Source: Planctomycetota bacterium
GTDB taxonomy: Bacteria > Planctomycetota > UBA1135
DNA: 40,254 nucleotides
Reading direction: 5' to 3'
Assembly: GCA_022447335.1 (NCBI GenBank)
Contig: JAKVCF010000002.1
Span: forward strand, 1-40,254
Each line of letters opens with the position of its first letter. The first letter of the stretch is position 1. The notes beneath the pieces were generated by a model. The model was not told the origin of the DNA, did no database searches, and saw only the letters and a program-made list of their open reading frames with translations. The position numbers and the translations under genes were made by a program. This document shows positions 5,712 through 30,715 of the stretch, in pieces.

Positions 5712-5717
5712 CGCCTA

Positions 5718-15689: not shown

Positions 15690-15697
15690 TTATCATC

Positions 15698-17233: not shown

Positions 17234-17243
17234 ACCTTCTAGC

Positions 17244-18347: not shown

Positions 18348-19239
18348 GCTTCGGCATAGCTCTCTCCTCACAGCCCTGATCATGGCGGCCTCCTGCTCGC
18401 TCTTCTCCTCCAGCGACTCAGCCGGCCCGCTCCGCCTCGCCCTGATAGCCGACTGCCAGTTCGCCGACGTCGAAGCGCGCGGCATACGCCTGTATCGCCA
18501 AGCCTCCACCAAGCTCCAGGAAGCCGTCGACACGCTGGCCCCACTCGCCCCGGACGCACTGGTCCACCTCGGCGACTTCATCGACAAGGACTGGGAATCT
18601 TTCGACATCGTGGCCCCGATCCTGGGTGCGATGCCCTGCCCGGTCTACCACGTACTCGGCAACCACGACTTCGAGGTCGCCGATGAGCACAAGCTCGCTG
18701 TGCCGCGTCGGCTAGGACTCGATGCCCGTTACGCTAGAGTTGACCTACCAGGAGGCTGGCGCTTACTGATTCTGGACGGCAACGACTTCAGCTACTCGGC
18801 TTGGCCAGAGGACCATCCGCGCGCAGAAGCCTCGCGCCGCTTCCACCGCGAGGTGAGCCCGGACTCGCCGCCTTGGAATGGTGGCATCGGACCCGAACAG
18901 ATGCAGTGGTTGCGCAATGAACTGCGATCTGCAGAAGATCACGGCACTTCGACCTTGGTCGCCTGCCACTTTCCTCTTTGGCCAGACGATGCTCACAACC
19001 TCTGGAATGCGGCGGAAGTCCGTGAACTTCTCTGCGATCACAGCTGCGTGAAGCTGTACTTAAGTGGGCACAACCACGCCGGCGCCTACGCCGAGCGCGA
19101 GGCCCTGCCTTTCCTAACACTGGAAGGCATGCTCGACACCGAGGAAAACGCTTTTGCTCTACTTGAGCTGCACGGCAACAACGCCAAGCTAACCGGTTGG
19201 GGCCGCGCAACTAGCCGAAAAATGCGGCTACGTGAATGA
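18346..19239 (+). CDS. calcineurin-like metallophosphoesterase with signal peptide (ADPRibase-Mn-like)
   Basis: It carries the motifs LALIADCQFAD, HLGDFID, LGNHDF, ACHFPL and SGHNHAG. The hydrophobic N-terminus is MLRHSSLLTALIMAASC. Confidence 0.8.
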   Translation: MLRHSSLLTALIMAASCSLFSSSDSAGPLRLALIADCQFADVEARGIRLYRQASTKLQEAVDTLAPLAPDALVHLGDFIDKDWESFDIVAPILGAMPCPVYHVLGNHDFEVADEHKLAVPRRLGLDARYARVDLPGGWRLLILDGNDFSYSAWPEDHPRAEASRRFHREVSPDSPPWNGGIGPEQMQWLRNELRSAEDHGTSTLVACHFPLWPDDAHNLWNAAEVRELLCDHSCVKLYLSGHNHAGAYAEREALPFLTLEGMLDTEENAFALLELHGNNAKLTGWGRATSRKMRLRE

Positions 19240-19261
19240 GAGTGAATGAGAACCTGCGTAA

Positions 19262-20218
19262 TCAGGTGCGCAACGCTTCGTCGAAGTAGCTCTGCTCAAG
19301 CAAATAATCTTCGCGATAAGCCGTCGCAAGAAAGCGTAACAAGCGCGTCGGCGCCGCGAGTGTGGCCTCACCACTCCGATAGGAGCGAATGGACTCGCGC
19401 ACCTCTTCTTTTTCCGCCGAACGCAGTGAGTGCTTAAAGAATCCTGCCATGTGGTCGAGAACATTCTGGTGTGTGCCGCGAGTTGGGCGTTGGGCAATGC
19501 ACCGTAGGTATAAATCCTGATATTCCTCTGCAAATTTCTCCGCCTCCAGATCGGAGATCGAAGCGACAAGCTGACCGAGCGCGCGATACATCTCCACATT
19601 ATGTGCGAGCAAAAAAAACTTCTCACGCGTATGAAAGTCGACAACGTCTCCGCGCCTCCATAGCCCATCTTCGAACAGCAGTCGCAATCGTCGCACCGCA
19701 CGCACGCGGCCAAAAAAGTGTGCTTTCAGATGCGGGTCGTTGAGCCTCCCATCTTCTTCCAAGGGAAGCCAGGGCAAGCGCGCGCGCAAAGCTTCCGTGA
19801 AAAACCCGTCGCGTGAGCGATGAGTAGGTCCACCGTCTTTGTAGATCTTGACGCGCTCCATCCCGCAGCTGGGCGAACCTTTCGTAAGCACAAATCCGTG
19901 CAACCTCTCGTTGGCAAGCTCTTCAGCCTTCTCCTGTGCCCACGCCATCATGGCTTCGGTATGGTCCGCCCCCGAGTCCGTTTCGACTAGGCGGTCCCCC
20001 TGCTCGCTGGCGACAATGCGAATGGTCGGCCGCGGGGCGCCCATACCGATCCCCATCTCGGGGCAGACTGCAATCCAGTCAACGCGCTCGGTGAGCTCAC
20101 GCGTTAGAAGCCGGCTCTCCTTTGCCTGTGCGTTGTAGCGCACTGGGGCCCCAAGTAAGCACATTGAGACGCCAAGTCGGAGCGGGCGCTCCGAGATTGA
20201 TGGCAGCGGCCAGACCAT
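19262..20218 (-). CDS. DUF523 (TudS-like [4Fe-4S] thiouracil desulfidase) fused to DUF1722 (YbgA-like)
   Basis: The three Cys motifs characteristic of DUF523/TudS are present: VSMCLLGAPVRY, VCPEMGIG and GSPSCG. The C-terminal half (HTREKFFLLAHN...YRALGQLVA) resembles DUF1722. It starts 9 nt after the carH-like gene stop. Confidence 0.8.
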   Translation of the reverse strand: MVWPLPSISERPLRLGVSMCLLGAPVRYNAQAKESRLLTRELTERVDWIAVCPEMGIGMGAPRPTIRIVASEQGDRLVETDSGADHTEAMMAWAQEKAEELANERLHGFVLTKGSPSCGMERVKIYKDGGPTHRSRDGFFTEALRARLPWLPLEEDGRLNDPHLKAHFFGRVRAVRRLRLLFEDGLWRRGDVVDFHTREKFFLLAHNVEMYRALGQLVASISDLEAEKFAEEYQDLYLRCIAQRPTRGTHQNVLDHMAGFFKHSLRSAEKEEVRESIRSYRSGEATLAAPTRLLRFLATAYREDYLLEQSYFDEALRT

Positions 20219-20227
20219 CAGATCAAC

Positions 20228-21169
20228 TTAATCCTGCTGATCAAATGGCCTTATTCCGTATTCGGACTGCATCCATAACTCGAGCTCCGCCAAGGTCGGC
20301 AAGTACACCACATCCCGCACGCCGCGGCGAGCGCGCCGTGCCCCACTCCCTCCGATCAGCAAAGTGGTCTTTGGATGCAGCTCGCGGCGGAGTGAAGAGA
20401 TAACGCGATCGGTCGCCGGACCGCCCGACGCAGTCGACACACTGATCGCGACTGGTGACCGCGGCACCTCTTTCGAAACGCGCACAATTTCATCAACCGG
20501 GAGGTCCACGCCCAGCAACACCGGCTCTCGCTCATACAACGCGACCAATAAGGCCACCAGCTGCAGCCCCAGCCCATGTCGCTCACCGGCTAGAGTCGCA
20601 AGAATGACGCGATCCGATTCAGCAATATTGCGATCAGTCGCACTAACCTGCCCGCGGAATCCACGCAGTAAATCCTGTAGCACTTCGGTGAGTTGGTGCT
20701 CCTGCGCAATGGTCAATCGATCTTCTTGCCATGCACGTCCGACTTCGTGAATGAGGGGCACGACCGCATCAAAAATGGTGGTGCGCGCACCGCGGTTATG
20801 CCAGCAACGCTTCAGTTCTTCAGCTAGCGAAACGCTATCGCTGGCATAGACCATGTCCATCAGCTGGCCTACTAGCGGCCCCAAGTCGGATCCGGGCTGA
20901 CGCTGGGTGAGCTGCTCGAGCTCTTCACCTTCCAGTTTGAGCACCTTCCCCGGGCGATGGCCGTTCGCAAGAGCCTCGGCCACGCAACGCAGCCAAACCA
21001 CCTGCTCCTGGGTATAGCGCCGGTGACCTGATGCCAAGCGCACCGCCTGCGGCTTACCGTAGCGGCGCTCCCAAACACGAATTGTGTGAGGCGATAAACC
21101 AGTGGTCTCACCTACCTCCCCAATGGAAAAAAGGCTCCCGGGATCCATGTTTGCCCCTGAATCGACCAT
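20228..21169 (-). CDS. carH: MerR-family, cobalamin-binding light-responsive regulator (CarH/LitR class I-like)
   Basis: The MerR HTH is FSIGEVGETTGLSPHTIRVWERRYG. A helical-bundle Wx9EH signature (AWQEDRLTIAQEH) and the B12 lower-ligand motif ExHxxG (GERHGLG) are present, followed by a Rossmann-like segment. An alternative start is the ATG at 21148. Confidence 0.8.
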   Translation of the reverse strand: MVDSGANMDPGSLFSIGEVGETTGLSPHTIRVWERRYGKPQAVRLASGHRRYTQEQVVWLRCVAEALANGHRPGKVLKLEGEELEQLTQRQPGSDLGPLVGQLMDMVYASDSVSLAEELKRCWHNRGARTTIFDAVVPLIHEVGRAWQEDRLTIAQEHQLTEVLQDLLRGFRGQVSATDRNIAESDRVILATLAGERHGLGLQLVALLVALYEREPVLLGVDLPVDEIVRVSKEVPRSPVAISVSTASGGPATDRVISSLRRELHPKTTLLIGGSGARRARRGVRDVVYLPTLAELELWMQSEYGIRPFDQQD

Positions 21170-21193
21170 ATGACTAGATTATAACCTCAACAG
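21170..21193. promoter_or_regulatory. 24-bp divergent carH/photolyase control region with overlapping -10-like boxes
   Basis: The minus strand reads TATAAT (21183->21178), 8 nt before the ATG at 21169. The plus strand reads TATAAC (21180-21185), 8 nt before the ATG at 21194. Both start codons are symmetric about the TTATAA core (21179-21184). I recognised no convincing -35 element. Confidence 0.45.
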
Positions 21194-22690
21194 ATGCCAG
21201 CCCCATGCGAACTTCGCCGGCGGGTCCTGTGCGACCTCCCACCACACCCTGAGAGCCAATACATCCTGTACTGGCTGACGGCAACGCGCCGACTGGAACG
21301 AAACCACGCTCTGGACCAGGCCCTTGATTGGTGCACGAAGCTAAATAAGCCATTAGTAATCCTGGAATCACTGCGCAGCGACTACCGCTGGTCATGCCCC
21401 CGCCACCACCGCGTCCTACTTGACGCAATGGCCGAGCACATCGCCGCGATTGATCCGTGCAAGATCCGCTACTACCCCTATGTAGAACACGAAGCCGGTG
21501 CAGGCAAGGGACTACTCGCGGCAATGGCTCAGGATGCTGCAGTGGTCGTCACTGACCGCCATCCGGGTTTCCATTTTCCAGCCATGCTAGAAGCTGCGCG
21601 CAAGCAGCTGAAGGTGCGCTTCGAGGTAGTCGAAAGTGTCGGCCTACTACCACTCGATGTCGCGCCCGGCCCCCTGCCTAGTGCTTATGTCCTACGCCGC
21701 CGCATGCAAAAGAACCTAGCGAACTGGCTGGGGCGTACCGCTGCAGATGACCCCCTCACGGCCTATACCTGGGGGCGCGCCAAAATCCGTCCGCAGATTG
21801 AAGCTCGTTGGCCGGAAGCTACTACAGAAGAGCTCGCACCCGCCATGCGGCTCGAATCGAAGATCCCGCTCGCATACGAAGTACCCGTTACTAACTGGTG
21901 CGGCGGCACCCGACCAGCGCGGGCCTTACTCGACCGCTTCATCGAGGAGCAACTGCCCCGTTACGGAGAGCGCCGAATGGAAGCAACTCCAACAAGTGGG
22001 CTTTCAATGGCCTTGCATTACGGTTTCCTCTGCCCGTCGACAATACTCGACGCCACGCTAGCTTCCAGTGACACCAGCCGCGCCCATATCCTTCCTGAAC
22101 TGGCCAAGCGAGCCAATCTTTCACGTGGATCCCGCGCAGGCTGGTGGGGACTATCGGAGCAGGTTGAAACCTTCCTCGATCAACTCGTAACTTGGCGCGA
22201 ATTAGGTCATCGATTCGCCGACCAAAACCCTGACTGTGAGCGCTATGGGAGCCAACCAAGCTGGGCTGTAGCTACTCTCGATTCACACCGTGCGGACGCG
22301 CGCGAGTTCGCGTACACACGTGAGCAGTTTGAGCAGGCCCGCACCCATGACCCACTTTGGAATGCCGCACAACGCTGCCTTGTCCGTGAGGGTTGGATGC
22401 CCAACTATTTACGCATGCTCTGGGGCAAGAATCTGCTGACCTGGAGTCAGGATCCCGAAGAGGCTTGGGAACTCCTCTTCCATCTCAATAACCTCTATGC
22501 CTTAGACGGCCGCGATCCCAACTCCATGCGCGGGATTACCTGGGTCTTTGGCCGCTTCGACCGCCCTTTCGGCCCCGAGCGCCCCGTCACTGGCAAGCTG
22601 CGCCCGATGAGTTCAGTGAACACCAAGCGGAAAATGGCTCTGGGCGAATTTTTAGACCGTTTTAACAAAGTTGAGCGCCTGTTTAGCTAG
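21194..22690 (+). CDS. phr: deoxyribodipyrimidine photolyase, class II-like
   Basis: The C-terminal FAD-domain pattern GWMPNYLRMLWGKNLL...LNNLYALDGRDPNSMRGITWVFG...GKLRPMS...KRK parallels class II CPD photolyases. The N-terminal YILYWLTATRRLERNHAL is a diverged version of the YWMxRDQRxxDNWAL region. Confidence 0.8.
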   Translation: MPAPCELRRRVLCDLPPHPESQYILYWLTATRRLERNHALDQALDWCTKLNKPLVILESLRSDYRWSCPRHHRVLLDAMAEHIAAIDPCKIRYYPYVEHEAGAGKGLLAAMAQDAAVVVTDRHPGFHFPAMLEAARKQLKVRFEVVESVGLLPLDVAPGPLPSAYVLRRRMQKNLANWLGRTAADDPLTAYTWGRAKIRPQIEARWPEATTEELAPAMRLESKIPLAYEVPVTNWCGGTRPARALLDRFIEEQLPRYGERRMEATPTSGLSMALHYGFLCPSTILDATLASSDTSRAHILPELAKRANLSRGSRAGWWGLSEQVETFLDQLVTWRELGHRFADQNPDCERYGSQPSWAVATLDSHRADAREFAYTREQFEQARTHDPLWNAAQRCLVREGWMPNYLRMLWGKNLLTWSQDPEEAWELLFHLNNLYALDGRDPNSMRGITWVFGRFDRPFGPERPVTGKLRPMSSVNTKRKMALGEFLDRFNKVERLFS

Positions 22691-22698
22691 GCGACGAT

Positions 22699-22746
22699 TT
22701 GCGTGATATTGACTCTGCCCCTAAATTCGCTGCCCCAAAATTTAGG
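22699..22746 (+). promoter_or_regulatory. candidate sigma70-like promoter (TTGCGT-17-TAAATT) overlapped by an 8-bp inverted repeat
   Basis: TTGCGT lies at 22699-22704 and TAAATT at 22722-22727, with a 17-nt spacer. The inverted repeat is CCTAAATT (22720-22727) and AATTTAGG (22739-22746). It sits between the photolyase stop (22690) and the DUF1295 ATG (22752). Confidence 0.3.
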
Positions 22747-22751
22747 CAACT

Positions 22752-23573
22752 ATGAAACTCTCGTTTCTACCTCACAGCGTCCCAATCGTAGCCATGCCAT
22801 GGGAACACTATTTCTGGGCAGGCGCGCTGCTCGCCATCGGATTCGCGCTTCTATGGGGCGGCCTTGGCCGCGCCGGGCGCAGCGGTTGGGCGGACTTCGC
22901 CTGGGCCGTTGCAATCGGCGTGAGCGCCGCAGTCTTAGCGGAGTTGGGAAATGGCTGGGCCTACCGGAAAGTCGTGGTGGCAGCACTTGCTCTTGTCTGG
23001 GCAAGTCGACTAGCAGTTCACCTTGGCAAGCGCCTCGCTCATGAAGGAGAAGACGGCCGATATCTGGCGATGGCCGCTCGGCTTGGCGCCAGTTATCGCA
23101 CCTTCATGCTGGGATTCTTTCTCCTACAGGCTTTCATGGCTTGGGTATTCACTCTGCCCTTCTTCGTGCTGGCTCAAGATCCCACCGAAAACTTTCGAGC
23201 CATAGAGCTGCTCGGCCTTGGCCTTTGGCTGATAAGCCTCGCTGGCAACAACCTGGCAGACCGTCAGCTAGTTGCTTGGAAAGCCGACCCAGCAAACCAA
23301 GGCAAAACCTGCCGCAGTGGACTGTGGGCTTGGTCGCGTCACCCTAACTACTTTTTTGAGTGGTTAATCTGGTGCGCATACCCAGTCATGGCCATTGGCA
23401 CCGACGGCCTCATCTGGGCCGCTGGCGTCGCTGCCTTCATGTTCATAATGGTGCGCTTCGTCTCAGGCGTGCCCTTCACCGAGCAGCAGGCAGTGCGCAG
23501 TCGCGGTGACGACTATCGACGCTATCAGGAAAGCGTCTCGCCATTCTTCCCTCTCCCCCCCAAATCTTCCTGA
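22752..23573 (+). CDS. DUF1295 family membrane protein (steroid 5-alpha-reductase/ICMT-like fold)
   Basis: It has WSRHPNYFFEWLIW and a multi-pass membrane profile. An alternative start is at 22794. Its stop overlaps the next ATG by 1 nt (TGATG). Confidence 0.7.
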   Translation: MKLSFLPHSVPIVAMPWEHYFWAGALLAIGFALLWGGLGRAGRSGWADFAWAVAIGVSAAVLAELGNGWAYRKVVVAALALVWASRLAVHLGKRLAHEGEDGRYLAMAARLGASYRTFMLGFFLLQAFMAWVFTLPFFVLAQDPTENFRAIELLGLGLWLISLAGNNLADRQLVAWKADPANQGKTCRSGLWAWSRHPNYFFEWLIWCAYPVMAIGTDGLIWAAGVAAFMFIMVRFVSGVPFTEQQAVRSRGDDYRRYQESVSPFFPLPPKSS

Positions 23574-24601
23574 TGAGTACTCCGATCCAACTGGCTGAGC
23601 GCGGTCTGGTCCCTGAGTTTGCAATCCGCTGGGGCATTCGTCGCTTATTGCGCGACCGAATCCGCGAAGAAACCGCCCGCCTCTCGTCCGGCCGCGAACT
23701 CGCGCTGCAGAACTGGGTTGAGCAAATGCGTAGCAGCCAAGTGGCGCTGCACACGGGCGCAGCAAACGAACAGCACTACGAGGTCCCGCCGGACTTCTTC
23801 GAAGAATGCTTGGGCGGGCATCTTAAATACAGCTCGTGCTACTACACCACAGGGCACGAGTCGCTTACGGAGGCTGAGGCGGCCATGCTCGCGCTGACCA
23901 GTGAGCGCGCCCGTCTAGCAAACGGGCTCGACATACTTGAACTAGGCTGTGGTTGGGGATCGCTGTCTCTATGGATGGCCAAACACTACCCAATGAGCCG
24001 AATCACCTCGGTGTCAAATTCTGCCCCACAGCGCGAATTCATCGCAGCGCGCGCAGCTGAACGCGGCCTGACCAACCTCCAAGTCATCACTGCCGATGCG
24101 AATACATTCGAACCAGACAGTACATACGATCGCATTGTGTCCGTGGAAATGTTCGAGCACATGCGCAACTGGGAACAGCTGCTTGGCCGTGCATATGGCT
24201 GGTTGCGCGCTGGAGGGAAGATGTTCCTCCACGTCTTTTCACATAAGAGCTACTGCTATCCATTCGAGGTAGAGGGTGATAACAACTGGATGGGGCGGTC
24301 CTTCTTCACCGGGGGCATGATGCCTAGCCACGATCTGCTAGACCACCTCGACATCCCCTTTGAGCTCGAAGAGCGATGGGAAATCAATGGTCGCCACTAT
24401 GCGCAGACCTCGGAACACTGGCTCGAAAATCTGAACAACTGCCGCACAAAGCTGATGCCAGTGCTCGCAAACACCTACGGGCCAGAAAATGCCAAGCGAT
24501 GGTTTCACCGCTGGCGCATATTCTTCCTCGCTTGCGCCGAACTATTCGCTTATGACCAGGGCAATGCTTGGCAAGTGACACATCATCTTCTGAAAAAATG
24601 A
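23573..24601 (+). CDS. SAM-dependent methyltransferase, cyclopropane-fatty-acyl-phospholipid synthase family (short form)
   Basis: It carries HYEVPPDFFEECLGGHLKYSSCYY, the SAM motif ILELGCGWGS and SVEMFEHM. It has an ATGA overlap with the desaturase gene. Confidence 0.8.
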   Translation: MSTPIQLAERGLVPEFAIRWGIRRLLRDRIREETARLSSGRELALQNWVEQMRSSQVALHTGAANEQHYEVPPDFFEECLGGHLKYSSCYYTTGHESLTEAEAAMLALTSERARLANGLDILELGCGWGSLSLWMAKHYPMSRITSVSNSAPQREFIAARAAERGLTNLQVITADANTFEPDSTYDRIVSVEMFEHMRNWEQLLGRAYGWLRAGGKMFLHVFSHKSYCYPFEVEGDNNWMGRSFFTGGMMPSHDLLDHLDIPFELEERWEINGRHYAQTSEHWLENLNNCRTKLMPVLANTYGPENAKRWFHRWRIFFLACAELFAYDQGNAWQVTHHLLKK

Positions 24602-25551
24602 AGTCGGCTTCACAAGCGATCGTACGGTGGTTTGACTCCTGGGCAGGCGTTGATGAATCACACGACCTGCGCAATGAAATAGACTGGACGCGCGTCCTTC
24701 CCTTCATTGGCATGCACCTCGCGTGCATCGCCATAATATGGGTCGGCGTTAGCTCGGCGGCAGTTACCGTCGCGATCGGCGGGTACTTCCTGCGCATGTT
24801 TGCGATCACAGGCTTCTATCATCGCTACTTTAGTCACCGCGCCTTTGAGACCTCACGCCTGGTTCAGTTCTTGGGCGGTTTTCTCGGAGCGACCTCGACC
24901 CAACGTGGACCCCTATGGTGGGCGGCACATCACCGCTTACACCATCGCCACTCGGATGAACCTGCCGACGCTCACTCGCCAATCCAGCACAGCCTTCTGA
25001 CTAGTCATGTGGGCTGGTTTTTAAACACGGCAAACTTCCGCACGCGCACTGAACAGGTACCTGACCTGATGAAGTTCCCCGAATTGCGCCTGCTCGATCG
25101 CTTTGATGTGCTAGCTCCGGCTATCTATGCCGCGGGCTGCCTTCTACTGGGCCGCGCACTCGAAACGTGGGCACCCAACCTTGGCACGAACGGGCCGCAG
25201 ATGCTGGTGTGGGGATTTTTTGTATCGACTGTGGCCCTGTACCACGGCACCTTCACAATCAACTCACTCGCACACCTCTGGGGAAAACGTCGTTATAAGA
25301 CGGAAGACGACAGTCGCAATAACTGGCTTCTTTCGATAATCACGCTCGGCGAAGGGTGGCACAACAACCATCACTACCACCCCGGATCCGCCCGCCAAGG
25401 TTTCCGCTGGTGGGAATTCGATCCGACGTGGTACGCGCTAAAAGTGTTTGAAAAAATGGGGGTTATCTGGAATGTCCGCGGCGTACCAAAACGAGTGATA
25501 CATGCCGGGAAGCTCGCGCGTAAATCGAACCACCAGAAGAGGGCTACCTAA
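24598..25551 (+). CDS. membrane fatty-acid desaturase (Delta9/stearoyl-CoA desaturase family)
   Basis: Three His boxes are present: HRYFSH, HRLHHRH and HNNHHYH. I chose the start at the ATG at 24598, overlapping the upstream stop. The stop TAA overlaps the next ATG (TAATG). Confidence 0.85.
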   Translation: MKSASQAIVRWFDSWAGVDESHDLRNEIDWTRVLPFIGMHLACIAIIWVGVSSAAVTVAIGGYFLRMFAITGFYHRYFSHRAFETSRLVQFLGGFLGATSTQRGPLWWAAHHRLHHRHSDEPADAHSPIQHSLLTSHVGWFLNTANFRTRTEQVPDLMKFPELRLLDRFDVLAPAIYAAGCLLLGRALETWAPNLGTNGPQMLVWGFFVSTVALYHGTFTINSLAHLWGKRRYKTEDDSRNNWLLSIITLGEGWHNNHHYHPGSARQGFRWWEFDPTWYALKVFEKMGVIWNVRGVPKRVIHAGKLARKSNHQKRAT

Positions 25552-26867
25552 TGCGCATTGCCGTGGTTGGCGGCGGCGTGTCTGGACTGGTAGCCGCATG
25601 GCTGCTCGCACGTGAACACGAAGTCGTGCTGTACGAGGCCGAAAATCGCATCGGCGGCCATGCGCATACTAGTGAAGTTGACTTCGGCGACGGGCCGATT
25701 GCCGTCGACACTGGATTTATTGTCTTTAATCACCGCACCTATCCGCTGTTCCGCCGTGTACTACAGGAACTTGGCGTTCCTGAAAAACTTTCCAATATGA
25801 GCTTTAGCGCGTCGATTCCTTCACGTGGGATCGAATACAACGGCGCCAGTTTCAATAAACTCTTTGCGCAACGCCGTAATCTAATTCGGCCGTCTTTCTG
25901 GCGCATGGTTCGCGGCATCCTGCGCTTTTACAAAGAGTCTCGCGAACTACTTTCTCCCGAAGCCGCAGAAGTAGCGCTTGGCGAATACCTGCAGAAGAAT
26001 CGCTATGCTCGCGAATTTGTTGATGACCACCTAGTTCCGATGGCCGCCGCCGTTTGGTCTACGGATCGTGAGCGAATGATGGACTTCCCAGCACGCTTCC
26101 TCGTGCGCTTCTTTGACCACCACGGATTTCTCGAAGTGGATAACCGCCCAGCATGGTTCACAGTCGAGGGTGGTTCGCGCGAATATGTGGCGGCTATCAG
26201 CCGCCAACTCGGAGGCGCAGTTCGGTCGGGTACCCCGGTGAAAAATATCGCGCGGTTGCCCAAACATAGTGGCAGTAGTCACAGCATGCGCGTGACCTCA
26301 AGAGAAAGTGTTGATCTGTTCGATCAAGTCGTGCTCGCAACACATAGCGATACCACGCTGCGCTTGCTTGAAGACCCAACAAAAGCTGAGGGCGAGGTGC
26401 TCAGCGCGCTTCCTTACCAAAACAATGTGGCGCAGCTTCACTCTGATGCTTCGGTTATGCCAAAAAAACGCCGCGCCTGGGCTAGCTGGAACTATCACGT
26501 CGGCCGCAACTCGAAAGCACCACCGACCATCACTTATTGGATGAACTTATTACAAGGCATCGAGTCACCCGAGCCACTCTTTGTCACACTCAACCGGCAA
26601 GAAGAAATCGACCCGGCCAAAGTACATGGCCAGTGGAACTATGCTCATCCGCTGTACACCGCGCAAACCGTCGCTGCGCAAATGCGGCGCCTAGAGATCC
26701 AAGGAGTTGACCGCATCTGGTATGCCGGCGCCTATTGGGGATATGGATTTCACGAAGACGGAGTACGTTCCGCCGTCGAAGTAGCGCGTCGTCTCGGCGT
26801 GCCTTTCGCCGAAGACTTACCTGAACGTGAGATCGATCGGTTATTAACCATGGAGGCTGTTACGTGA
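25551..26867 (+). CDS. FAD/NAD(P)-binding oxidoreductase (amine-oxidase/phytoene-desaturase-like)
   Basis: The N-terminal dinucleotide fold is MRIAVVGGGVSGLVAAWLL...YEAENRIGGH. It sits in the gene order FAD-oxidoreductase / DUF1365 / CFA synthase that I recall as conserved across many bacteria. Confidence 0.8.
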   Translation: MRIAVVGGGVSGLVAAWLLAREHEVVLYEAENRIGGHAHTSEVDFGDGPIAVDTGFIVFNHRTYPLFRRVLQELGVPEKLSNMSFSASIPSRGIEYNGASFNKLFAQRRNLIRPSFWRMVRGILRFYKESRELLSPEAAEVALGEYLQKNRYAREFVDDHLVPMAAAVWSTDRERMMDFPARFLVRFFDHHGFLEVDNRPAWFTVEGGSREYVAAISRQLGGAVRSGTPVKNIARLPKHSGSSHSMRVTSRESVDLFDQVVLATHSDTTLRLLEDPTKAEGEVLSALPYQNNVAQLHSDASVMPKKRRAWASWNYHVGRNSKAPPTITYWMNLLQGIESPEPLFVTLNRQEEIDPAKVHGQWNYAHPLYTAQTVAAQMRRLEIQGVDRIWYAGAYWGYGFHEDGVRSAVEVARRLGVPFAEDLPEREIDRLLTMEAVT

Positions 26868-27676
26868 TGCAGGGCATCCCTGGTTGCTCGATCTACTACG
26901 GACGCGTGCGACACCGGCGATACACGCCGCGAATCCACTCCTTCTCCTACAGCCTTTTCTTAGTCGGGATCGACTTAGACCGGGCCGAAGAAGCGATGGG
27001 GGTAAGCAAACTGTTGGGCTATGAACGCTTTGCTCACTCAAGCTTCCGCCGCACTGACTACTACGGCGATCCTTCTGTAGCACTCGGCACCGCAGTGCGT
27101 AATCGCGTTGAAGCCGAATCCGGCTTCCGCCCAACGGGGCCGATTGAACTGGTCACACAGCTGCGCACCTTTGGCTACTCATTCAACCCGGTCAGCTTCT
27201 ACTACTGCTGGACGCCGGATCGCAGCCAACTACAGGCCATCCTCGTAGAGATTACCAATACCCCATGGGGGGAGCGCCACTCATACGTACTGCCCTGGCA
27301 GGCCTTAAAGGAAAAGGGCTTAAACACGCTCAGGCGCCGCAGTCAGCGCTGGGCCTTCCGCAAAGATTTTCATATCTCTCCTTTCAGCCCAATGGAGATC
27401 GAGCATGACTGGCGTTTCGCCCAACCGGGACAACGCCTTAGCGTGCACATGATCAATCGCGCATTGAACCGTAGCGCAGAGTTCGATGCCACACTGCTAC
27501 TTAAGCGTCACCCTTTCACGCGCCGTGAAGTGCGGCGAGCCCTGTTGCGCCACCCATTCCTGCCCGGGAAGTCCTTGTTCGGAATTTACTGGCAAGCGCT
27601 AAAACTATTCTTGAAGCGCGCACCCTTCCACGCGCACCCCGCTAAGCGATCCACCAAATCCGCCGAAAGTTCATGA
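26864..27676 (+). CDS. DUF1365 family protein
   Basis: It has the YYGRVRHRRYTPRIHSFSYSLFLVGIDLD N-terminal signature. The start is GTG at 26864 or ATG at 26867, and both overlap the upstream TGA. It has an ATGA overlap with the next gene. Confidence 0.75.
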   Translation: MMQGIPGCSIYYGRVRHRRYTPRIHSFSYSLFLVGIDLDRAEEAMGVSKLLGYERFAHSSFRRTDYYGDPSVALGTAVRNRVEAESGFRPTGPIELVTQLRTFGYSFNPVSFYYCWTPDRSQLQAILVEITNTPWGERHSYVLPWQALKEKGLNTLRRRSQRWAFRKDFHISPFSPMEIEHDWRFAQPGQRLSVHMINRALNRSAEFDATLLLKRHPFTRREVRRALLRHPFLPGKSLFGIYWQALKLFLKRAPFHAHPAKRSTKSAESS

Positions 27677-28962
27677 GTCAACCCCGCACTATTTCTGCTC
27701 CGGCACCTCGTGATGTCGCCGCTACCCACCCAGGCTGGCTGACACGCGTAGCGGGCAACGCCCTTTCAAAGGTCGGGCGGAAAGGCCTACTTACTCGACT
27801 GGAAAAGCTGCATTTTGGCGAGCTGACAATCGAAGAAGGTGGTCAAAAGCACCGCTTTGGGGCCCCCACAAACGACGGCCTAGCCGCAACGTTAAGTGTT
27901 CATGATTCGCGATTCTGGACTGAGCTTCTGGCTAGTGGAACCGTTGGCGCAGGCGAAGCCTATCGCCAAGGTTGGTGGGCAGCGGAAGATCTAACTCAAG
28001 TTGTTCGCATTCTTGTGCGCAACCGTGCGGTCATGGAAGACGTGGAAGGCGGCTTAGCAGCATTGGCTGCACCCCTGCGCAAGATGGCTCACTGGGCTAA
28101 CCGGAATACTATTGAGGGGAGTCGCAAGAATATCGAAGCTCACTACGACCTCTCAAATGACTTCTTCTCATTGATCCTCGATCCGACAATGACGTACTCG
28201 TGCGGGATTTATCTATCAAAAGATGCCTCGCTCGAAAGCGCCTCGATAGAGAAGATCGATCGCCTGTGCCGAAAGCTTGAGTTAAAGCCTGGTATGCGCC
28301 TACTCGAAATTGGCACCGGATGGGGTGCACTGGCAATTCATGCGGCTAAGAACTATGGAGTACGAGTCACGACCACGACTATCTCCGATCGCCAGGCTGA
28401 ATGGGCGGAACGCCGCATCACTGAAGAAGGGCTGGGTGATCAGGTCACCCTGCTGCGCAAGGACTATCGTAAGCTCGAAGGCAAGTTCGACAGAATTGTT
28501 TCGGTCGAGATGATTGAGGCCATCGGATGGCAGTATTTCGACTCGTACTTTGAAGTCATTGGCAAGCGCCTAGAAGACGACGGCCTAGCCGCCATTCAGG
28601 CCATTACGATTGCCGACCAGCATTACGAGAGCGCCCGCGCCTCCGTAGACTTTATTCAGAAGTACATCTTCCCAGGCTGTTGCATTCCATCGATCAGCGC
28701 GCTCTTAGAGTCTGCGACTCAGTCAAGCGACCTAAAGCTAATTGGGCTCGAAGACATTACGCCGCACTATGTGCGCACTCTGGCCGAATGGCGCAAGAAT
28801 ATGTTCGATAACCAAGAGCAAGTTCGAGCCCTTGGTTTAGACGACAAGTTCATCCGTACCTGGGACTACTACTTCAGCTATTGCGAAGGGGGCTTTGCGG
28901 AAAGCCAGCTCGGCGACGTCCAGATGCTCTTTGGTAAGCCACGCTACCAGGTCCCAGCGTGA
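27673..28962 (+). CDS. cyclopropane-fatty-acyl-phospholipid synthase family methyltransferase (long form)
   Basis: It carries HYDLSNDFFSLILDPTMTYSCGIY, LLEIGTGWGALAIHAA and SVEMIEAIG. Its stop overlaps the GTG start of the next gene (GTGA). Confidence 0.85.
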   Translation: MSQPRTISAPAPRDVAATHPGWLTRVAGNALSKVGRKGLLTRLEKLHFGELTIEEGGQKHRFGAPTNDGLAATLSVHDSRFWTELLASGTVGAGEAYRQGWWAAEDLTQVVRILVRNRAVMEDVEGGLAALAAPLRKMAHWANRNTIEGSRKNIEAHYDLSNDFFSLILDPTMTYSCGIYLSKDASLESASIEKIDRLCRKLELKPGMRLLEIGTGWGALAIHAAKNYGVRVTTTTISDRQAEWAERRITEEGLGDQVTLLRKDYRKLEGKFDRIVSVEMIEAIGWQYFDSYFEVIGKRLEDDGLAAIQAITIADQHYESARASVDFIQKYIFPGCCIPSISALLESATQSSDLKLIGLEDITPHYVRTLAEWRKNMFDNQEQVRALGLDDKFIRTWDYYFSYCEGGFAESQLGDVQMLFGKPRYQVPA

Positions 28963-29486
28963 ACCTCCTGGCTCTATTCTTAGTTTTCCAGGGGGCCTGG
29001 TTCGCGATCGTATATAGCGGCGCACAAGGAAACTCGGTCTGGGCGATAGCAGCAACGGCAATGGCACTTGGGCTGCTGATACGCATGTACTCAGCCCGTG
29101 GCGTACTGCTCCGCGCGACAATCGGCGCCTCCTGCGGCATTGTGCTCGACGGCACACTAATTTATTTCGACCTGACCACCTTCCCAGCGACTTGCGGGCT
29201 ACCTTTTGGCGAGGATGTCCTACCGCTCTGGATGCTCTGCCTCTGGTCGATCTTCGCAGCAATCCTGCCCTATATGGTTCCCTGGCTCGAAGGCCGACGC
29301 GCACTCGGCGTCGTCTTCGGGGCAGCCGGAGGGCCTATCGCTTACTTCTCGGCTGAAAAGTTGGGCGCCATCGAAGTCGCTGGCCTACTAGGCTACAGCG
29401 CAGTAGGCATAGCCTGGTCTGCTGCAATGGCAGTACTACCACTCGCCGAGCACAAGCCGAAAGCCTCTGGATCCTTGCGGCAGTAA
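28959..29486 (+). CDS. small polytopic membrane protein (DUF2878-like)
   Basis: This hydrophobic 175-aa ORF has a GTG start overlapping the upstream stop. The family assignment comes from its position in the cluster and its N-terminal FQGAWFAIVYSG pattern, and needs an HMM check. Confidence 0.55.
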   Translation: MNLLALFLVFQGAWFAIVYSGAQGNSVWAIAATAMALGLLIRMYSARGVLLRATIGASCGIVLDGTLIYFDLTTFPATCGLPFGEDVLPLWMLCLWSIFAAILPYMVPWLEGRRALGVVFGAAGGPIAYFSAEKLGAIEVAGLLGYSAVGIAWSAAMAVLPLAEHKPKASGSLRQ

Positions 29487-29517
29487 AGCTGCCAGGATCT
29501 ACAAATAGCTCGAGCGA

Positions 29518-29952
29518 CTACCGGCGTGAAGCTGGCAATACTGGTACAGGGCGCCGGTTTTCATCGACAGCGACATAAGTAACCTCTGCTTCGGTAACAC
29601 GAATCTCTTCACCATCTGAATCATCTTTACGCTGCACCTTAACGAGCACCTTCACTTGGACCGAAGTTCTACCTACCTTGCAAACTTGTGCGTAGAAGGA
29701 ACAAAGGTCTCCCACGAATACAGGCTCGTGGAAAACAATCTCGTTCATCGCCACCGTCACGAAGCGACGAGCTGGATTGAGCTTGCGAACTGGGACAACT
29801 CCCGCCAAGTCGATGTGCGCAAGAATAACGCCACCGAAGATCGTGCCCTGCGCATTGGTATCACGCGGCAGCAAGATCGTACGCAAGGCAAGCTCTGTCG
29901 GATAGTCGCAATCGTCGCCGCAAAGTTCAGAGCTATCGTGTATTCCAGTCAT
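29518..29952 (-). CDS. acyl-CoA thioesterase (hotdog fold, YciA-like)
   Basis: It has LLPRDTNAQGTIFGGVILAHIDLAG. I chose the start at the ATG at 29952, 7 nt after the upstream gene stop. Confidence 0.8.
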   Translation of the reverse strand: MTGIHDSSELCGDDCDYPTELALRTILLPRDTNAQGTIFGGVILAHIDLAGVVPVRKLNPARRFVTVAMNEIVFHEPVFVGDLCSFYAQVCKVGRTSVQVKVLVKVQRKDDSDGEEIRVTEAEVTYVAVDENRRPVPVLPASRR

Positions 29953-29959
29953 AATTTTC

Positions 29960-30715
29960 TCAGTTGATGTCTTCGCGGATTTGCAGATTACGGAACTCAA
30001 TCAGTGCGCCCTCGGCTTCTAGTGCCAGATAACCCGTGCTGGGCTTGCACATGAATCCGCGGTTTACTAGTACGCCATTAACCCAAAGGGTCACTTGACC
30101 GTCAACAGCGCGTAAAGCATAAGTATTCCATTCGCCCGCAGGGCGCACCACGCGCCCACTTGGAAAACTCCGCGAGCTGTTCGGATTTCCCACTTTGTAC
30201 TCACTGCCATCCTCGGCTTGGTACACAATTTCTGGATTCTCCGCCTCCATGCTCGCTTCGCCAACTGGGAAGATGTCGCCGTGCGAAGTGAACCAGTTTG
30301 ATGGCGCCCCACGATCCTTGATCCAGTTTTCCTCGTAGCCGAGGTCGAGTACCTGAATCTCGATACCCGTGCGCGGCAGTTGACCTGGTGGTAAATCAGT
30401 AAAGGCCGACTCAGGGCACCAAAGGAAAATGCCTGAGTTTCCTGCGTAGTCATGATGCTTCCACTCAACGGTTAACTCAAAATCGGAGTACTCCTTTCTT
30501 GAGCGCGCGCCCCCCATCGGCTTCCCAGTGCAGATGATGGAGTTACCTTCTTGGCGCCACGTCGTCCCGTCACCATTGACGTTGACGAAGTCTTCAAGCG
30601 TAAGATCAACCCAACCACCGCCAGCGAACTCTTTCGGAATCCCCGGGTACGGCACCGCGCAGGACGATGCGAGCACCAAAAGCAAAGCAAGTCTCAATAG
30701 AACGGGGAAAAGCAT
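29960..30715 (-). CDS. DUF1080 (3-keto-disaccharide hydrolase-like) lipoprotein
   Basis: It has a lipobox (LVLASSC). The segments TWRQEGNSIICTG...YSDFELTVEWKH...NSGIF and LEAEGALIEFRNLQI are typical of DUF1080. Confidence 0.75.
   Translation of the reverse strand: MLFPVLLRLALLLVLASSCAVPYPGIPKEFAGGGWVDLTLEDFVNVNGDGTTWRQEGNSIICTGKPMGGARSRKEYSDFELTVEWKHHDYAGNSGIFLWCPESAFTDLPPGQLPRTGIEIQVLDLGYEENWIKDRGAPSNWFTSHGDIFPVGEASMEAENPEIVYQAEDGSEYKVGNPNSSRSFPSGRVVRPAGEWNTYALRAVDGQVTLWVNGVLVNRGFMCKPSTGYLALEAEGALIEFRNLQIREDIN

What the first reader, a model, noticed from the sequence alone, without database searches (positions are those of the whole stretch)
19262..29486. Ten-gene light-response island around a CarH/LitR-type B12 photoreceptor regulator
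A MerR/B12-binding regulator and a TudS-DUF1722 gene run leftward. A class II-like photolyase and a seven-gene lipid-modification operon run rightward from a 24-bp divergent control region. Photolyase, ybgA-type genes, CFA-synthase-like genes, DUF1365, FAD oxidoreductase and DUF1295 are known to co-occur in other bacteria and to be induced by light or singlet oxygen. As far as I recall, the regulators there are sigmaE-ChrR in Rhodobacter and class II LitR in Pseudomonas. Here the whole set is compacted next to a class I, AdoCbl-type sensor, in what looks like a PVC-type genome. That would give a single photosensory switch over DNA repair, a possible thionucleotide step and membrane-lipid remodelling.
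Basis: partly seen in the sequence, partly recalled or inferred. Interest (0 to 1): 0.8.

Follow-up and report, generated by a model that had tools for sequence, protein, structure and literature searches.

The report
B12 light-switch photoprotection gene island
A marine Planctomycete carries a compact ten-gene block in which a vitamin-B12 light-sensing repressor sits beside genes for DNA photorepair, tRNA de-thiolation and furan fatty acid synthesis; the block is real, but it recombines parts that are each already known.

Summary
All ten ORFs lie at the stated coordinates, with the predicted domains and a 24-bp divergent gap.

- **Regulator.** It is a CarH/LitR homologue carrying both motifs that define AdoCbl-type (class I) members.
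- **TudS-DUF1722 gene.** This is a RudS-type tRNA 4-thiouridine desulfidase, a family characterised in 2024.
- **"Lipid-modification operon".** It contains the ufaD-ufaO-ufaM triad that makes furan fatty acids, which scavenge singlet oxygen. Four accessory genes accompany it.
- **Conservation.** Four related Planctomycete contigs (regulator 62-83% identical) keep the same ten-gene order and the same 24-bp gap, while their flanks differ.
- **Wider pattern.** In 38 of 80 species-representative genome loci encoding this regulator subfamily, mostly Betaproteobacteria, ufaD/ufaO lie within 10 kb. The CarH-furan fatty acid link is therefore widespread, not unique.
- **Predicted operator.** I predict an inverted repeat, TGTCTA-N10-TAGACA. 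It is perfect in distant relatives and present at both promoters in the four close relatives. In the window it is imperfect at the divergent promoter and degenerate at the internal lipid-operon promoter.

Light control itself is inferred, not shown. The same output genes are known under class II LitR in Pseudomonas and under sigmaE-ChrR in Rhodobacter. I rate this a new member of a known kind, of moderate interest.

The parts
19262..20218 (-). RudS-type gene (TudS [4Fe-4S] desulfidase fused to DUF1722). Predicted tRNA 4-thiouridine desulfidase, probably co-transcribed with the regulator across a 9-bp gap.
   Evidence: Pfam PF04463 at 6e-38 (profile positions 2-141 of 141) and PF08349 at 1e-31. 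The RudS family was characterised in PMC11417400. The stop/start spacing was read.
20228..21169 (-). CarH/LitR-family regulator with an N-terminal MerR wHTH and a C-terminal AdoCbl-binding module (four-helix bundle plus Rossmann fold). Predicted light-sensitive repressor.
   Evidence: Pfam MerR_1, B12-binding_2 and B12-binding. NCBIfam TransRegCarH at 3e-26, below its cutoff. Solved CarH structure 5c8d at 8e-20, aligned over residues 2-300. W147, E157 and H158 are invariant and H198 nearly invariant across 15 homologues. The conserved N-terminus M-x-x-P/S-G-A supports the start at 21169.
21170..21193 (.). 24-bp divergent control region. Two -10-like hexamers overlap here: TATAAT on the minus strand (21183-21178) and TATAAC on the plus strand (21180-21185). 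Each lies 8 nt from its ATG, implying leaderless or near-leaderless mRNAs. The predicted operator, TGACTA-N10-TCAACA, spans 21171-21192.
   Evidence: Sequence read. The core AGATTATAA is invariant in 5 orthologous loci. The operator pattern matches with 3 mismatches here, 2-3 in the four relatives at the same position, and 0 in L003, L010 and L022 just upstream of their regulators.
21194..22690 (+). Class II CPD photolyase.
   Evidence: TIGR00591 phr2 at 1e-80, covering residues 17-489. The top solved structures are class II photolyases 8oet, 2xry and 3umv.
22691..22751 (+). 61-bp spacer with a conserved internal promoter for the lipid operon: -35 TTGCGT at 22699-22704, a 17-nt spacer, and -10 TAAATT at 22722-22727. 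The operator remnant at 22684-22705 is degenerate in this genome.
   Evidence: Five-way alignment. Relatives keep TTG(C/T)AC-17-TAATTT and an operator TGTCTA-N10-TG(C/T)ACA with 2 mismatches. By my reading, the window has about 7 mismatches there, and no match was found at 3 or fewer. No terminator-like site lies between the photolyase and DUF1295 genes.
22752..23573 (+). DUF1295 membrane protein (steroid-reductase/ICMT-like fold). Accessory gene of the extended furan fatty acid operon; role unknown.
   Evidence: PF06966 at 8e-63. It co-occurs with the ufa genes in L010, L065 and L073.
23573..24601 (+). Short (342 aa) CMAS-family SAM methyltransferase. Candidate second fatty-acyl methylase (FufM-like or UfaM-like).
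   Evidence: PF02353 at 2.5e-37. FufM is described as a distant UfaM paralogue in PMC7380195. Orthologues at 51-55% identity occur in L010, L056 and L073.
24598..25551 (+). Membrane (di-iron, histidine-box) fatty acid desaturase. The start is revised to ATG 24598.
   Evidence: PF00487 at 4e-23. The ATGA overlap was read. Relatives' gene calls are 302-314 aa.
25551..26867 (+). UfaD-like FAD-dependent fatty-acyl desaturase.
   Evidence: PF01593 Amino_oxidase at 9e-27 plus NAD_binding_8. UfaD is described as an NAD/FAD-domain protein resembling phytoene desaturases (PMC7380195). It takes the first position of the D-O-M order.
26864..27676 (+). UfaO-like DUF1365 protein (O2-dependent furan ring formation).
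   Evidence: PF07103 at 9e-76, full length. UfaO is the characterised DUF1365 member (PMC7380195).
27673..28962 (+). UfaM-like CFA-synthase-family SAM methylase.
   Evidence: PF02353 at 4e-85 and NF008686 at 2e-82. It holds the same position as R. palustris ufaM (RPA2569) after ufaD-ufaO.
28959..29486 (+). DUF2878 small membrane protein, the last gene of the operon.
   Evidence: PF11086 at 2e-24. It is conserved at this position in all four relatives.

Best explanation
This is a light-inducible photoprotection island under direct control of an adenosylcobalamin-dependent CarH-type repressor.

**Proposed mechanism (inferred from the family).** In the dark, AdoCbl-bound regulator oligomers occupy an inverted-repeat operator. 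That operator fills the 24-bp gap between the two start codons and covers the overlapping -10 elements of two back-to-back promoters. Binding blocks transcription leftward (regulator plus RudS) and rightward (photolyase, probably reading through into the lipid operon). UV, blue or green light photolyses the Co-C bond, the oligomer falls apart, and both directions are derepressed.

**Products.**
- A class II photolyase, which repairs cyclobutane pyrimidine dimers and itself needs light.
- RudS, which strips photo-crosslinkable 4-thiouridine from tRNA.
- UfaM, UfaD and UfaO, which convert monounsaturated phospholipid acyl chains into methylated furan fatty acids that scavenge singlet oxygen in the membrane. 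The second methylase, the membrane desaturase, DUF1295 and DUF2878 are accessory; they may supply substrate or add a second methyl group.

**Shown here.** Gene identities, the AdoCbl motifs, conserved synteny, conserved promoter and operator-like sequences, and the cross-phylum linkage of this regulator subfamily to ufa genes.

**Inferred.** AdoCbl binding, light response, repression, the exact operator, and the lipid product.
For: **Domains and motifs.** establish them. CarH homologues are defined by Wx9EH plus the ExHxxG...SxV/T...GG motif (PMC8156234); both are present, with Ser in place of Val/Thr.

**Synteny.** Four relatives, with regulators 62-83% identical, keep the ten genes and the 24-bp gap. 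Their flanks differ through GST or histidine-kinase insertions.

**Survey.** Of 80 GTDB loci, 38 have ufaD or ufaO within 10 kb of the regulator. A full triad is present in 31, and 30 of those have the triad divergent from the regulator in D-O-M order. RudS lies next to the regulator in L003, L024, L030, L043 and L054. A class II photolyase lies next to it in L012, L031 and L065.

**Operator.**
- TGTCTA-N10-TAGACA is a perfect match directly upstream of the regulator in L003, L010 and L022, and has one mismatch in L016.
- In the four close relatives, every match with 2 or fewer mismatches falls in one of the two promoter regions.
- The half-site resembles the footprinted class II LitR hexamer TGTACA (PMC9758184). 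It also contains the ACA core of the Thermus CarH repeat nAnnTnnACAn.
- Proteobacterial members carry a related palindrome, TTGTC-N3-GACAA, 23-fold enriched upstream of the regulator.

**B12 use.** The window also encodes QueG, a cobalamin-dependent enzyme.
Against: - There is no experimental evidence for this protein or organism.
- In the window alone the operator match (3 mismatches) is no better than chance: 5 matches against 6.5 expected.
- The window's internal lipid-operon promoter has lost the operator that its relatives keep. Direct repression of that promoter here is therefore doubtful.
- The predicted operator is an inverted repeat, whereas the solved Thermus CarH complex uses tandem direct repeats. 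A search for that tandem pattern was not enriched.
- The regulator scores far below the NCBIfam CarH equivalog cutoff (92 vs 400 bits) and just below the Pfam B12-binding cutoff (28.9 vs 32.1 bits).
- In R. sphaeroides the CFA-synthase-like gene placed after ufaO (RSP1089) is dispensable for furan fatty acid synthesis. Position alone therefore does not prove that 27673-28962 is the working UfaM.
Confidence: 0.7

Rival explanations
1. Split control. The CarH-type regulator governs only the divergent pair (itself plus RudS, and the photolyase). The seven-gene lipid operon is driven mainly from its own promoter, either by another system such as an ECF sigma/anti-sigma pair responding to singlet oxygen (as in Rhodobacter) or constitutively.
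For: A conserved sigma70-like promoter lies in the 61-bp spacer. The window's copy of the operator at that promoter is degenerate, with no match at 3 or fewer mismatches. The same enzymes are under sigmaE-ChrR control in R. sphaeroides.
Against: The four relatives keep a 2-mismatch operator over the -35 of that promoter. L010 has the same seven-gene operon directly divergent from the regulator, with a perfect operator between them. No terminator separates the photolyase gene from the operon, so read-through from the light-controlled promoter remains likely. No ECF sigma gene lies in the window.
Confidence: 0.15
2. The regulator reports cobalamin availability or redox state rather than light, or it acts without B12 as Myxococcus CarA does. 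On this reading the neighbourhood reflects general oxidative stress defence.
For: B12-binding domains also occur in regulators that do not sense light. CarA binds its operator without B12.
Against: CarA lacks Wx9EH, while this protein and 14 homologues keep it invariant. All four elements of the published light-response signature are present. The neighbours (photolyase, RudS, furan fatty acid genes) are specifically light-damage functions.
Confidence: 0.05
3. The lipid operon makes something other than furan fatty acids. Candidates include cyclopropane or mid-chain methyl-branched fatty acids, or a new oxidised lipid built using the extra desaturase, methylase and DUF1295.
For: There are two CMAS-family genes, and the best NCBIfam names are cyclopropane synthases, all below cutoff. 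RSP1089, in the equivalent position in R. sphaeroides, is not needed for furan fatty acids. Four of the seven genes have no assigned role.
Against: [quoted passage not shown] DUF1365 has no other known function.
Confidence: 0.2
4. The regulator works as a classical MerR-type activator, remodelling a promoter with an over-long spacer, rather than as a repressor.
For: It has a MerR-family DNA-binding domain and a palindromic predicted site.
Against: The inverted repeat is centred on the -10 hexamers, or on the -35 at the second promoter in relatives. It is not centred on a 19-20-bp spacer. The internal promoter has an ordinary 17-nt spacer. All characterised CarH/LitR members are repressors.
Confidence: 0.05

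Closest known systems
CarH/LitR class I of Thermus thermophilus (also Myxococcus xanthus CarH and Bacillus megaterium CarH)
   Same: The domain order is the same: MerR wHTH, four-helix bundle, Rossmann B12 domain. The Wx9EH motif and the His lower-ligand motif are present, and the WERRYG recognition-helix segment is conserved. It probably represses by covering promoter elements. In Thermus a photolyase gene also belongs to the light regulon.
   Different: Overall identity is only about 30%. The outputs here are RudS, photolyase and furan fatty acid genes rather than carotenoid genes. Control appears direct, whereas Thermus uses a LitR-LdrP cascade. The predicted operator is an inverted pair of half-sites rather than three or four tandem 11-bp direct repeats.
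Class II LitR regulons of Pseudomonas putida and P. mendocina (PplR1, PmlR1/2)
   Same: The output set is nearly the same: a photolyase, the regulator itself, RudS (ybgA-type), ufaM, a FAD oxidoreductase and unknowns. The regulator is a repressor with paired TGTACA-like hexamers, one site over the -35 and one between the transcription start and the ATG.
   Different: The Pseudomonas regulators lack the Rossmann B12 domain and depend on a LOV partner for light input. The hexamer spacing is N12 rather than N10. The Pseudomonas photolyase is named phrB, whereas this one is class II by HMM and solved-structure matches; the class of the Pseudomonas enzyme was not checked here. The Pseudomonas genes are spread over several loci.
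Rhodobacter sphaeroides / Rhodopseudomonas palustris furan fatty acid pathway (UfaM, UfaD, UfaO, FufM) under sigmaE-ChrR
   Same: The enzyme families match, and the ufaD-ufaO-ufaM order is that of R. palustris RPA2571-2569. The proposed physiological purpose, membrane defence against singlet oxygen, is the same.
   Different: The regulator there is an ECF sigma/anti-sigma pair that senses singlet oxygen, not a photoreceptor. The window's operon adds DUF1295, a membrane desaturase, a second methylase and DUF2878.
RudS tRNA 4-thiouridine desulfidase
   Same: It is a TudS-DUF1722 fusion with full-length matches to both domains. The published report notes genomic association with MerR-type light regulators and photolyases.
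   Different: The characterised examples come from Proteobacteria. Light-induced expression is still only a hypothesis, even in that paper.
Vibrio cholerae MerR-like VCA0056-phr operon
   Same: A MerR-family regulator is co-transcribed with a photolyase and is required for the blue-light transcriptional response. A CFA-synthase-like gene is induced.
   Different: According to PMC9758184, Vibrio-type (class IV) LitRs have no B12-binding domain. ChrR shares the response.

Membership tests
CarH/LitR class I (AdoCbl-dependent photoreceptor-repressors) | N-terminal MerR-type winged-helix DNA-binding domain | tested here: met
   PF13411 at 4e-12 and PF00376 at 3e-10, residues 14-72. The WERRYG segment aligns to Thermus CarH.
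CarH/LitR class I (AdoCbl-dependent photoreceptor-repressors) | C-terminal four-helix bundle plus Rossmann-fold B12-binding module | tested here: met
   PF02607 scores 32.2 bits, above its cutoff. PF02310 scores 28.9 bits, just below its 32.1 cutoff. The alignment to solved structure 5c8d spans residues 2-300.
CarH/LitR class I (AdoCbl-dependent photoreceptor-repressors) | Wx9EH motif capping the adenosyl group | tested here: met
   W147-x9-E157-H158, invariant in 15 homologues. The motif definition comes from PMC8156234.
CarH/LitR class I (AdoCbl-dependent photoreceptor-repressors) | ExHxxG-x41-SxV/T-x22-27-GG cobalamin motif with the His lower ligand | tested here: met
   E196-x-H198-xx-G201-x41-S243-x-S245-x27-G273-G274, read from the alignment. 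The third position is Ser rather than Val/Thr, the only departure.
CarH/LitR class I (AdoCbl-dependent photoreceptor-repressors) | AdoCbl-dependent tetramerisation in the dark and light-induced disassembly | not testable with these tools
   This needs purified protein, size-exclusion chromatography and UV-visible spectroscopy.
CarH/LitR class I (AdoCbl-dependent photoreceptor-repressors) | Large operator of repeated 11-bp units overlapping a promoter | tested here: inconclusive
   The tandem nAnnTnnACAn pattern is not enriched (16 matches vs 13 expected). An inverted pair of similar half-sites overlaps the -10 elements and is conserved in relatives. The window's own match is weak.
Furan fatty acid biosynthesis (UfaM-UfaD-UfaO) | DUF1365 protein (UfaO) | tested here: met
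   PF07103 at 9e-76, profile positions 1-234 of 235. Family definition.
Furan fatty acid biosynthesis (UfaM-UfaD-UfaO) | NAD/FAD-domain desaturase (UfaD) adjacent to UfaO | tested here: met
   PF01593 and PF13450. There is a 4-nt overlap with the DUF1365 gene.
Furan fatty acid biosynthesis (UfaM-UfaD-UfaO) | CFA-synthase-family SAM methylase acting on vaccenate (UfaM) | tested here: inconclusive
   Two CMAS-family genes are present. Which one methylates 18:1 cannot be told from sequence.
Furan fatty acid biosynthesis (UfaM-UfaD-UfaO) | Production of 9M5-FuFA in phospholipids | not testable with these tools
   This needs GC-MS of fatty acid methyl esters.
RudS (TudS-DUF1722 tRNA s4U desulfidase) | TudS domain fused to a C-terminal DUF1722 | tested here: met
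   Both domains are full length in one 318-aa ORF.
RudS (TudS-DUF1722 tRNA s4U desulfidase) | [4Fe-4S] cluster ligands and s4U-tRNA desulfidase activity | not tested
   The Cys ligands were not inspected individually, and the activity needs biochemistry.
Class II CPD photolyase | Full-length match to the class II model and to class II solved structures | tested here: met
   TIGR00591 at 1e-80 over residues 17-489, at 272 bits, below the equivalog cutoff of 550. Solved structures 8oet, 2xry and 3umv match at 1e-38 to 9e-51.
Class II LitR (Pseudomonas type) | Four-helix bundle only, no Rossmann B12 domain, LOV partner | tested here: not met
   The Rossmann domain and the His motif are present. 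No LOV gene lies in the window.

The most novel reading that the evidence does not exclude
This subfamily of AdoCbl-CarH regulators may be the main direct light switch for furan fatty acid synthesis across several phyla, including Planctomycetota, many Betaproteobacteria and Geobacteraceae. It may also use MerR-like inverted-repeat operators instead of the tandem direct repeats seen in the Thermus structure.

In the Planctomycete clade, one 22-bp site would sit on the shared -10 of two back-to-back leaderless promoters. In Proteobacteria, two TTGTC-N3-GACAA palindromes are phased 63 or 74 bp apart, about 6 or 7 helical turns, which suggests a tetramer bridging two sites.

The extended seven-gene operon could also make a light-induced lipid beyond 9M5-FuFA, such as a dimethyl furan fatty acid built on a dedicated desaturase product.
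Probability: 0.35. Interest if true: 0.55.

Novelty: new member of a known kind. Interest (0 to 1): 0.38.

Why it matters
If confirmed, this would extend the physiological reach of B12-based photoreceptors beyond carotenoid control. A single direct switch would then cover DNA photorepair, tRNA de-thiolation and furan fatty acid synthesis.

It would also do so in Planctomycetota, a phylum in which I found no study of light responses in the held literature.

The survey result has the wider reach. About half of the surveyed loci for this regulator subfamily pair it with ufaD-ufaO-ufaM. That gives a testable prediction for many cultured Betaproteobacteria, including Caballeronia and Acidovorax delafieldii.

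The predicted operators would give defined DNA targets for an orthogonal CarH-type optogenetic repressor.

None of this overturns current understanding. It joins known modules in an expected way.

Tried and rejected
- **Thermus CarH tandem repeat.** The pattern ANNTNNACA-NN-ANNTNNACA with 2 mismatches gave 16 matches against 13.3 expected and none in the divergent gap. I rejected it as the operator model.
- **Pseudomonas class II LitR consensus.** TGTACA-N12-TGTACA with 3 mismatches gave 12 matches, none in either promoter region.
- **Generic promoter and terminator scan.** The sigma70 consensus scan of 18900-30100 gave no hits in the two control regions, and overall counts equalled those of shuffled sequence. 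The promoter calls therefore rest on my reading of the five-way alignments, not on that scan.
- **Exact-sequence look-up.** The window's regulator is not on record.
- **Rfam.** No RNA family reached its gathering threshold anywhere in the window, so there is no cobalamin riboswitch.
- **Horizontal acquisition.** GC content is flat at 0.53-0.62 across the window, so there is no compositional sign of an imported island.
- **Papers not held.** The primary papers on class II LitR (PMC7515241) and class III LitR (PMC6256028) are not in the library. I used the follow-up paper's summaries instead.
- **Literature searches.** Searches joining class I CarH with furan fatty acids, DUF1365, cyclopropane synthase or Planctomycetes found no paper making that link. 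This is absence in the held library only.
- **Inverted repeat in the lipid-operon leader.** A 9-bp inverted repeat (CCTAAATT...AATTTAGG, about 22720-22747) is not conserved in relatives, so I did not treat it as functional.

Full report
**Observation**

Running leftward:
- 20228-21169 encodes a MerR HTH followed by B12-binding_2 and B12-binding domains.
- Nine bases downstream, 19262-20218 encodes a full-length TudS domain fused to DUF1722.

Running rightward:
- 21194-22690 matches the class II photolyase model (TIGR00591, 1e-80). Its best solved relatives are the class II CPD photolyases of Methanosarcina and rice.
- After a 61-bp spacer come seven genes that overlap each other by 1-4 nt: DUF1295, a 342-aa CMAS-family methyltransferase, a membrane fatty acid desaturase, a FAD amine-oxidase-type oxidoreductase, DUF1365, a 429-aa CFA-synthase-family protein and DUF2878.

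The gap between the two divergent start codons is 24 bp. The one correction is the desaturase start. ATG 24598 forms an ATGA overlap with the preceding stop and fits the length of the relatives' genes better than TTG 24568.

**The regulator**

The best solved-structure match is Thermus thermophilus CarH (5c8d, E = 8e-20), aligned over almost the whole length.

A review from the laboratory that discovered CarH states that CarH homologues are defined by two motifs (PMC8156234). One is Wx9EH in the helical bundle. The other is the cobalamin motif ExHxxG-x41-SxV/T-x22-27-GG.

Both motifs are present here. They read W147-x9-E157-H158 and E196-x-H198-xx-G201-x41-S243-x-S245-x27-G273-G274, with Ser replacing Val/Thr. 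The key residues are invariant or nearly so across 15 homologues down to 32% identity.

The four-element light-response signature published in 2024 (GxxW, EH, GxxH, GxxxP; PMC11796333) can also be read in the sequence.

The protein is therefore a class I, AdoCbl-type member by every sequence criterion. It is a distant one: it scores well below the NCBIfam CarH equivalog cutoff. AdoCbl binding and light response remain inferences.

**The output genes**

The TudS-DUF1722 fusion is now a characterised family. RudS removes the 4-thiouridine modification from tRNA. Its discoverers noted that RudS genes often sit in light-responsive operons next to MerR-type regulators and photolyases. They proposed that removing the UVA-crosslinkable s4U protects translation (PMC11417400).

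The FAD oxidoreductase - DUF1365 - CFA-synthase trio matches the furan fatty acid pathway (PMC7380195).
- UfaM methylates vaccenate.
- UfaD, an NAD/FAD-domain desaturase, adds a second double bond.
- UfaO, the DUF1365 protein, inserts O2 to close the furan ring.
- In R. palustris the genes RPA2571-2570-2569 (ufaD-ufaO-ufaM) are necessary and sufficient for this synthesis.

The gene order in the window is the same. The shorter methylase could be a FufM-like second methylase. The desaturase, DUF1295 and DUF2878 have no assigned role.

One caveat applies. In R. sphaeroides the CFA-synthase-like gene placed after ufaO (RSP1089) is dispensable. Which of the two methylases here acts on 18:1 therefore cannot be decided from sequence.

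**Conservation**

The window's regulator has no exact copy on record. Homologues of 62-85% identity exist in marine metagenomes, and one is in an NCBI 'Planctomycetes bacterium' MAG.

I fetched four of these contigs: L001/L002, L087, L088 and L089. All show the same ten genes in the same order, with the same 24-bp gap. The flanks vary: a GST gene and an unknown gene are inserted after RudS in some, and a hybrid histidine kinase in another. The block thus behaves as a unit.

A more distant Planctomycete (L010, 41% identical regulator) has the seven-gene lipid operon directly divergent from the regulator, with no photolyase between. Another (L003) has only RudS divergent from it.

**How unusual is the pairing?**

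I scanned one genome per GTDB species with a profile of the regulator and kept the best 80 loci. I then searched them with the other nine window proteins.
- 38 of the 80 loci have ufaD or ufaO within 10 kb of the regulator.
- 31 have the full triad, and in 30 of those it is divergent from the regulator in D-O-M order.
- 26 of the loci are shorter than 12 kb, so these counts are lower bounds.
- Most carriers are Betaproteobacteria: Thiobacillus, Hydrogenophaga, Rubrivivax, Accumulibacter, Caballeronia and Acidovorax delafieldii.

In a Thiobacillus example the operon also carries glutathione peroxidase, a chalcone-isomerase-like protein, an MFS transporter, DUF3833 and a short-chain dehydrogenase.

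These proteobacterial regulators keep the AdoCbl motifs. The link between class I-type CarH and furan fatty acid genes is therefore widespread in genomes. I found no paper in the held library that describes it.

What is particular to the window's clade is the fusion of photolyase, RudS and the extended lipid operon into one block.

**Control regions**

*The divergent gap.* In a five-way alignment of the divergent region, the core AGATTATAA is invariant while the neighbouring codons vary. It contains TATAAT on the regulator's strand (21183-21178) and TATAAC/G on the photolyase strand (21180-21185). Each lies 8 nt from its ATG. There is no room for a Shine-Dalgarno sequence, so both mRNAs are probably leaderless or nearly so. 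This is an inference from the sequence; the generic promoter scan found nothing here.

*The 61-bp spacer.* It holds a conserved TTG(C/T)(A/G)(C/T)-17 nt-TA(A/G)(A/T)(T/C)T promoter. In the four relatives the DUF1295 ATG follows the -10 by 6-9 nt.

**Operator prediction**

*Proteobacterial loci.* Words enriched upstream of the regulators revealed a palindrome, TTGTC-N3-GACAA.
- It is present in 51 of 53 proteobacterial-type loci.
- It usually occurs twice, with spacings of 63 bp (14 cases), 64 bp (3 cases) or 74 bp (5 cases).
- It is 23 times denser in the 220 bp upstream of the regulator than elsewhere in the loci.

*Planctomycete, Holophagaceae and Nitrospina loci.* These lack that form but carry TGTCTA-N10-TAGACA.
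- It is a perfect match 40-60 bp upstream of the regulator in L003, L010 and L022.
- It has one mismatch in L016.

*The four close relatives.* Every match with 2 or fewer mismatches falls either in the 24-bp gap or over the -35 of the lipid-operon promoter.

*Support from known operators.* The half-site contains the ACA core of the Thermus CarH repeat nAnnTnnACAn. It also resembles the TGTACA hexamers footprinted for class II LitR. Those likewise lie one over the -35 and one between the transcription start and the ATG (PMC9758184).

*The window itself.* Here the evidence is weaker.
- The site in the gap (21171-21192, TGACTA-N10-TCAACA) has 3 mismatches, a level reached by chance elsewhere in the window (5 found, 6.5 expected).
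- The site at the lipid-operon promoter is degenerate: TAGCTA-N10-TGCGTG, about 7 mismatches by my reading.
- In this genome the lipid operon may therefore depend on read-through from the photolyase promoter. No terminator-like site intervenes. Alternatively, it may have partly escaped repression.

**Mechanism and rivals**

The best-supported reading is direct, one-tier repression by a dark-state AdoCbl-bound oligomer sitting on the shared -10 region, with release by light. I put its confidence at about 0.7.

The rivals are:
- split control, with the lipid operon answering to another system (0.15);
- a B12 or redox sensor that does not respond to light (0.05);
- MerR-style activation (0.05);
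- on a separate axis, a lipid product other than furan fatty acids (0.2).

B12 use by the organism is plausible because the window also encodes QueG, a cobalamin-dependent enzyme.

**Comparison and verdict**

The sensor is of the Thermus/Myxococcus/Bacillus CarH kind. The output set is almost that of the Pseudomonas class II LitR regulon: photolyase, the regulator itself, RudS, ufaM and a FAD oxidoreductase. The enzymes are those of the Rhodobacter sigmaE-ChrR singlet-oxygen response.

In Thermus, class I LitR already controls a photolyase, indirectly through LdrP.

The island therefore joins known modules in a way a specialist would expect. I file it as a new member of a known kind, with moderate interest (0.38). 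The parts worth following up are the cross-phylum CarH-furan fatty acid linkage and the predicted inverted-repeat operators, which differ from the tandem repeats of the solved CarH-DNA complex.

Noticed in passing
L025-L086 (for example L029 about 9850-9960, L047, L035, L084), in the regulator-ufaD intergenic regions: Proteobacterial CarH-like regulators have a palindrome, TTGTC-N3-GACAA, upstream. It is usually present twice, 63 bp apart (14 cases), 64 bp (3) or 74 bp (5), which is about 6 or 7 helical turns. It is 23 times denser there than elsewhere in the loci. This suggests a tetramer bridging two sites, an operator layout unlike the tandem repeats of Thermus CarH.
   Followed up: partly
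window 22684-22705, compared with L001, L087, L088 and L089 at 8465-8486: The operator-like inverted repeat over the -35 of the lipid-operon promoter has 2 mismatches in the four relatives but is degenerate in the window. TTTGTCTAG has become TTTAGCTAG, and TTGCACAA has become TTGCGTGA. The promoter hexamers themselves are kept.
   Followed up: partly
window 21167-21196; L001, L087 and L088 around 8436-8450: Three promoters in this clade place a -10-like hexamer 6-9 nt before the start codon, with no Shine-Dalgarno sequence. This suggests leaderless mRNAs. In the 24-bp gap the two -10 hexamers overlap, and each lies 8 nt from its ATG, giving an almost symmetrical arrangement.
   Followed up: partly
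window 3559-4674 (+): This is a QueG-type epoxyqueuosine reductase (DUF1730 plus a 4Fe-4S double-cluster domain and HEAT repeats). It is a cobalamin-dependent enzyme, so the organism uses B12. No cobalamin riboswitch or other Rfam family was found anywhere in the window.
   Followed up: no
L029 2810-9774 (-) and 11019-11651 (+): In a Thiobacillus MAG the operon divergent from the CarH-like regulator encodes glutathione peroxidase, ufaD, ufaO, ufaM, a chalcone-isomerase-like protein, an MFS transporter, DUF3833 and a short-chain dehydrogenase. A SOUL haem-binding protein gene follows the regulator. This looks like a fuller photo-oxidative stress regulon.
   Followed up: partly
L010 about 1600-6449; L073 about 1600-8100: The extended gene set (DUF1295, short methylase, membrane desaturase, ufaD, ufaO, ufaM) recurs at 45-63% identity in another Planctomycete. 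It also recurs at 36-54% identity in a Hydrogenophilaceae MAG. The accessory genes therefore travel with the ufa triad across phyla.
   Followed up: no
window 13469-19239, compared with L001 13443-19277 and L087 12702-18455: The left flank is syntenic in relatives: an HhH-GPD DNA glycosylase, an unknown gene of about 500 aa, a sulfatase, ispG/GcpE and a metallophosphoesterase. Relatives carry a GST gene, with or without an unknown gene of about 280 aa, between RudS and the metallophosphoesterase; the window lacks these. L089 instead has a PAS hybrid histidine kinase and a FIST-domain gene there.
   Followed up: no
window 17244-18608 (-): The GcpE/IspG ORF is listed at 454 aa, but the Pfam domain starts at residue 99 and relatives' genes are 361-367 aa. 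The true start is therefore probably about 90 codons downstream. The listed ORF also overlaps the sulfatase ORF (15827-17389).
   Followed up: no
window 22720-22747: There is an 8-9-bp perfect inverted repeat (CCTAAATT ... AATTTAGG) in the leader of the DUF1295 gene. It is absent from the four relatives, where the gene instead starts right after the -10.
   Followed up: partly
P0013 / L088 10001-10963: The regulator of this relative diverges abruptly through the His-motif region (GERARPG in place of GERHGLG) and then rejoins the alignment. It looks like a pair of compensating frameshifts or an assembly error, not a real B12-independent variant.
   Followed up: no
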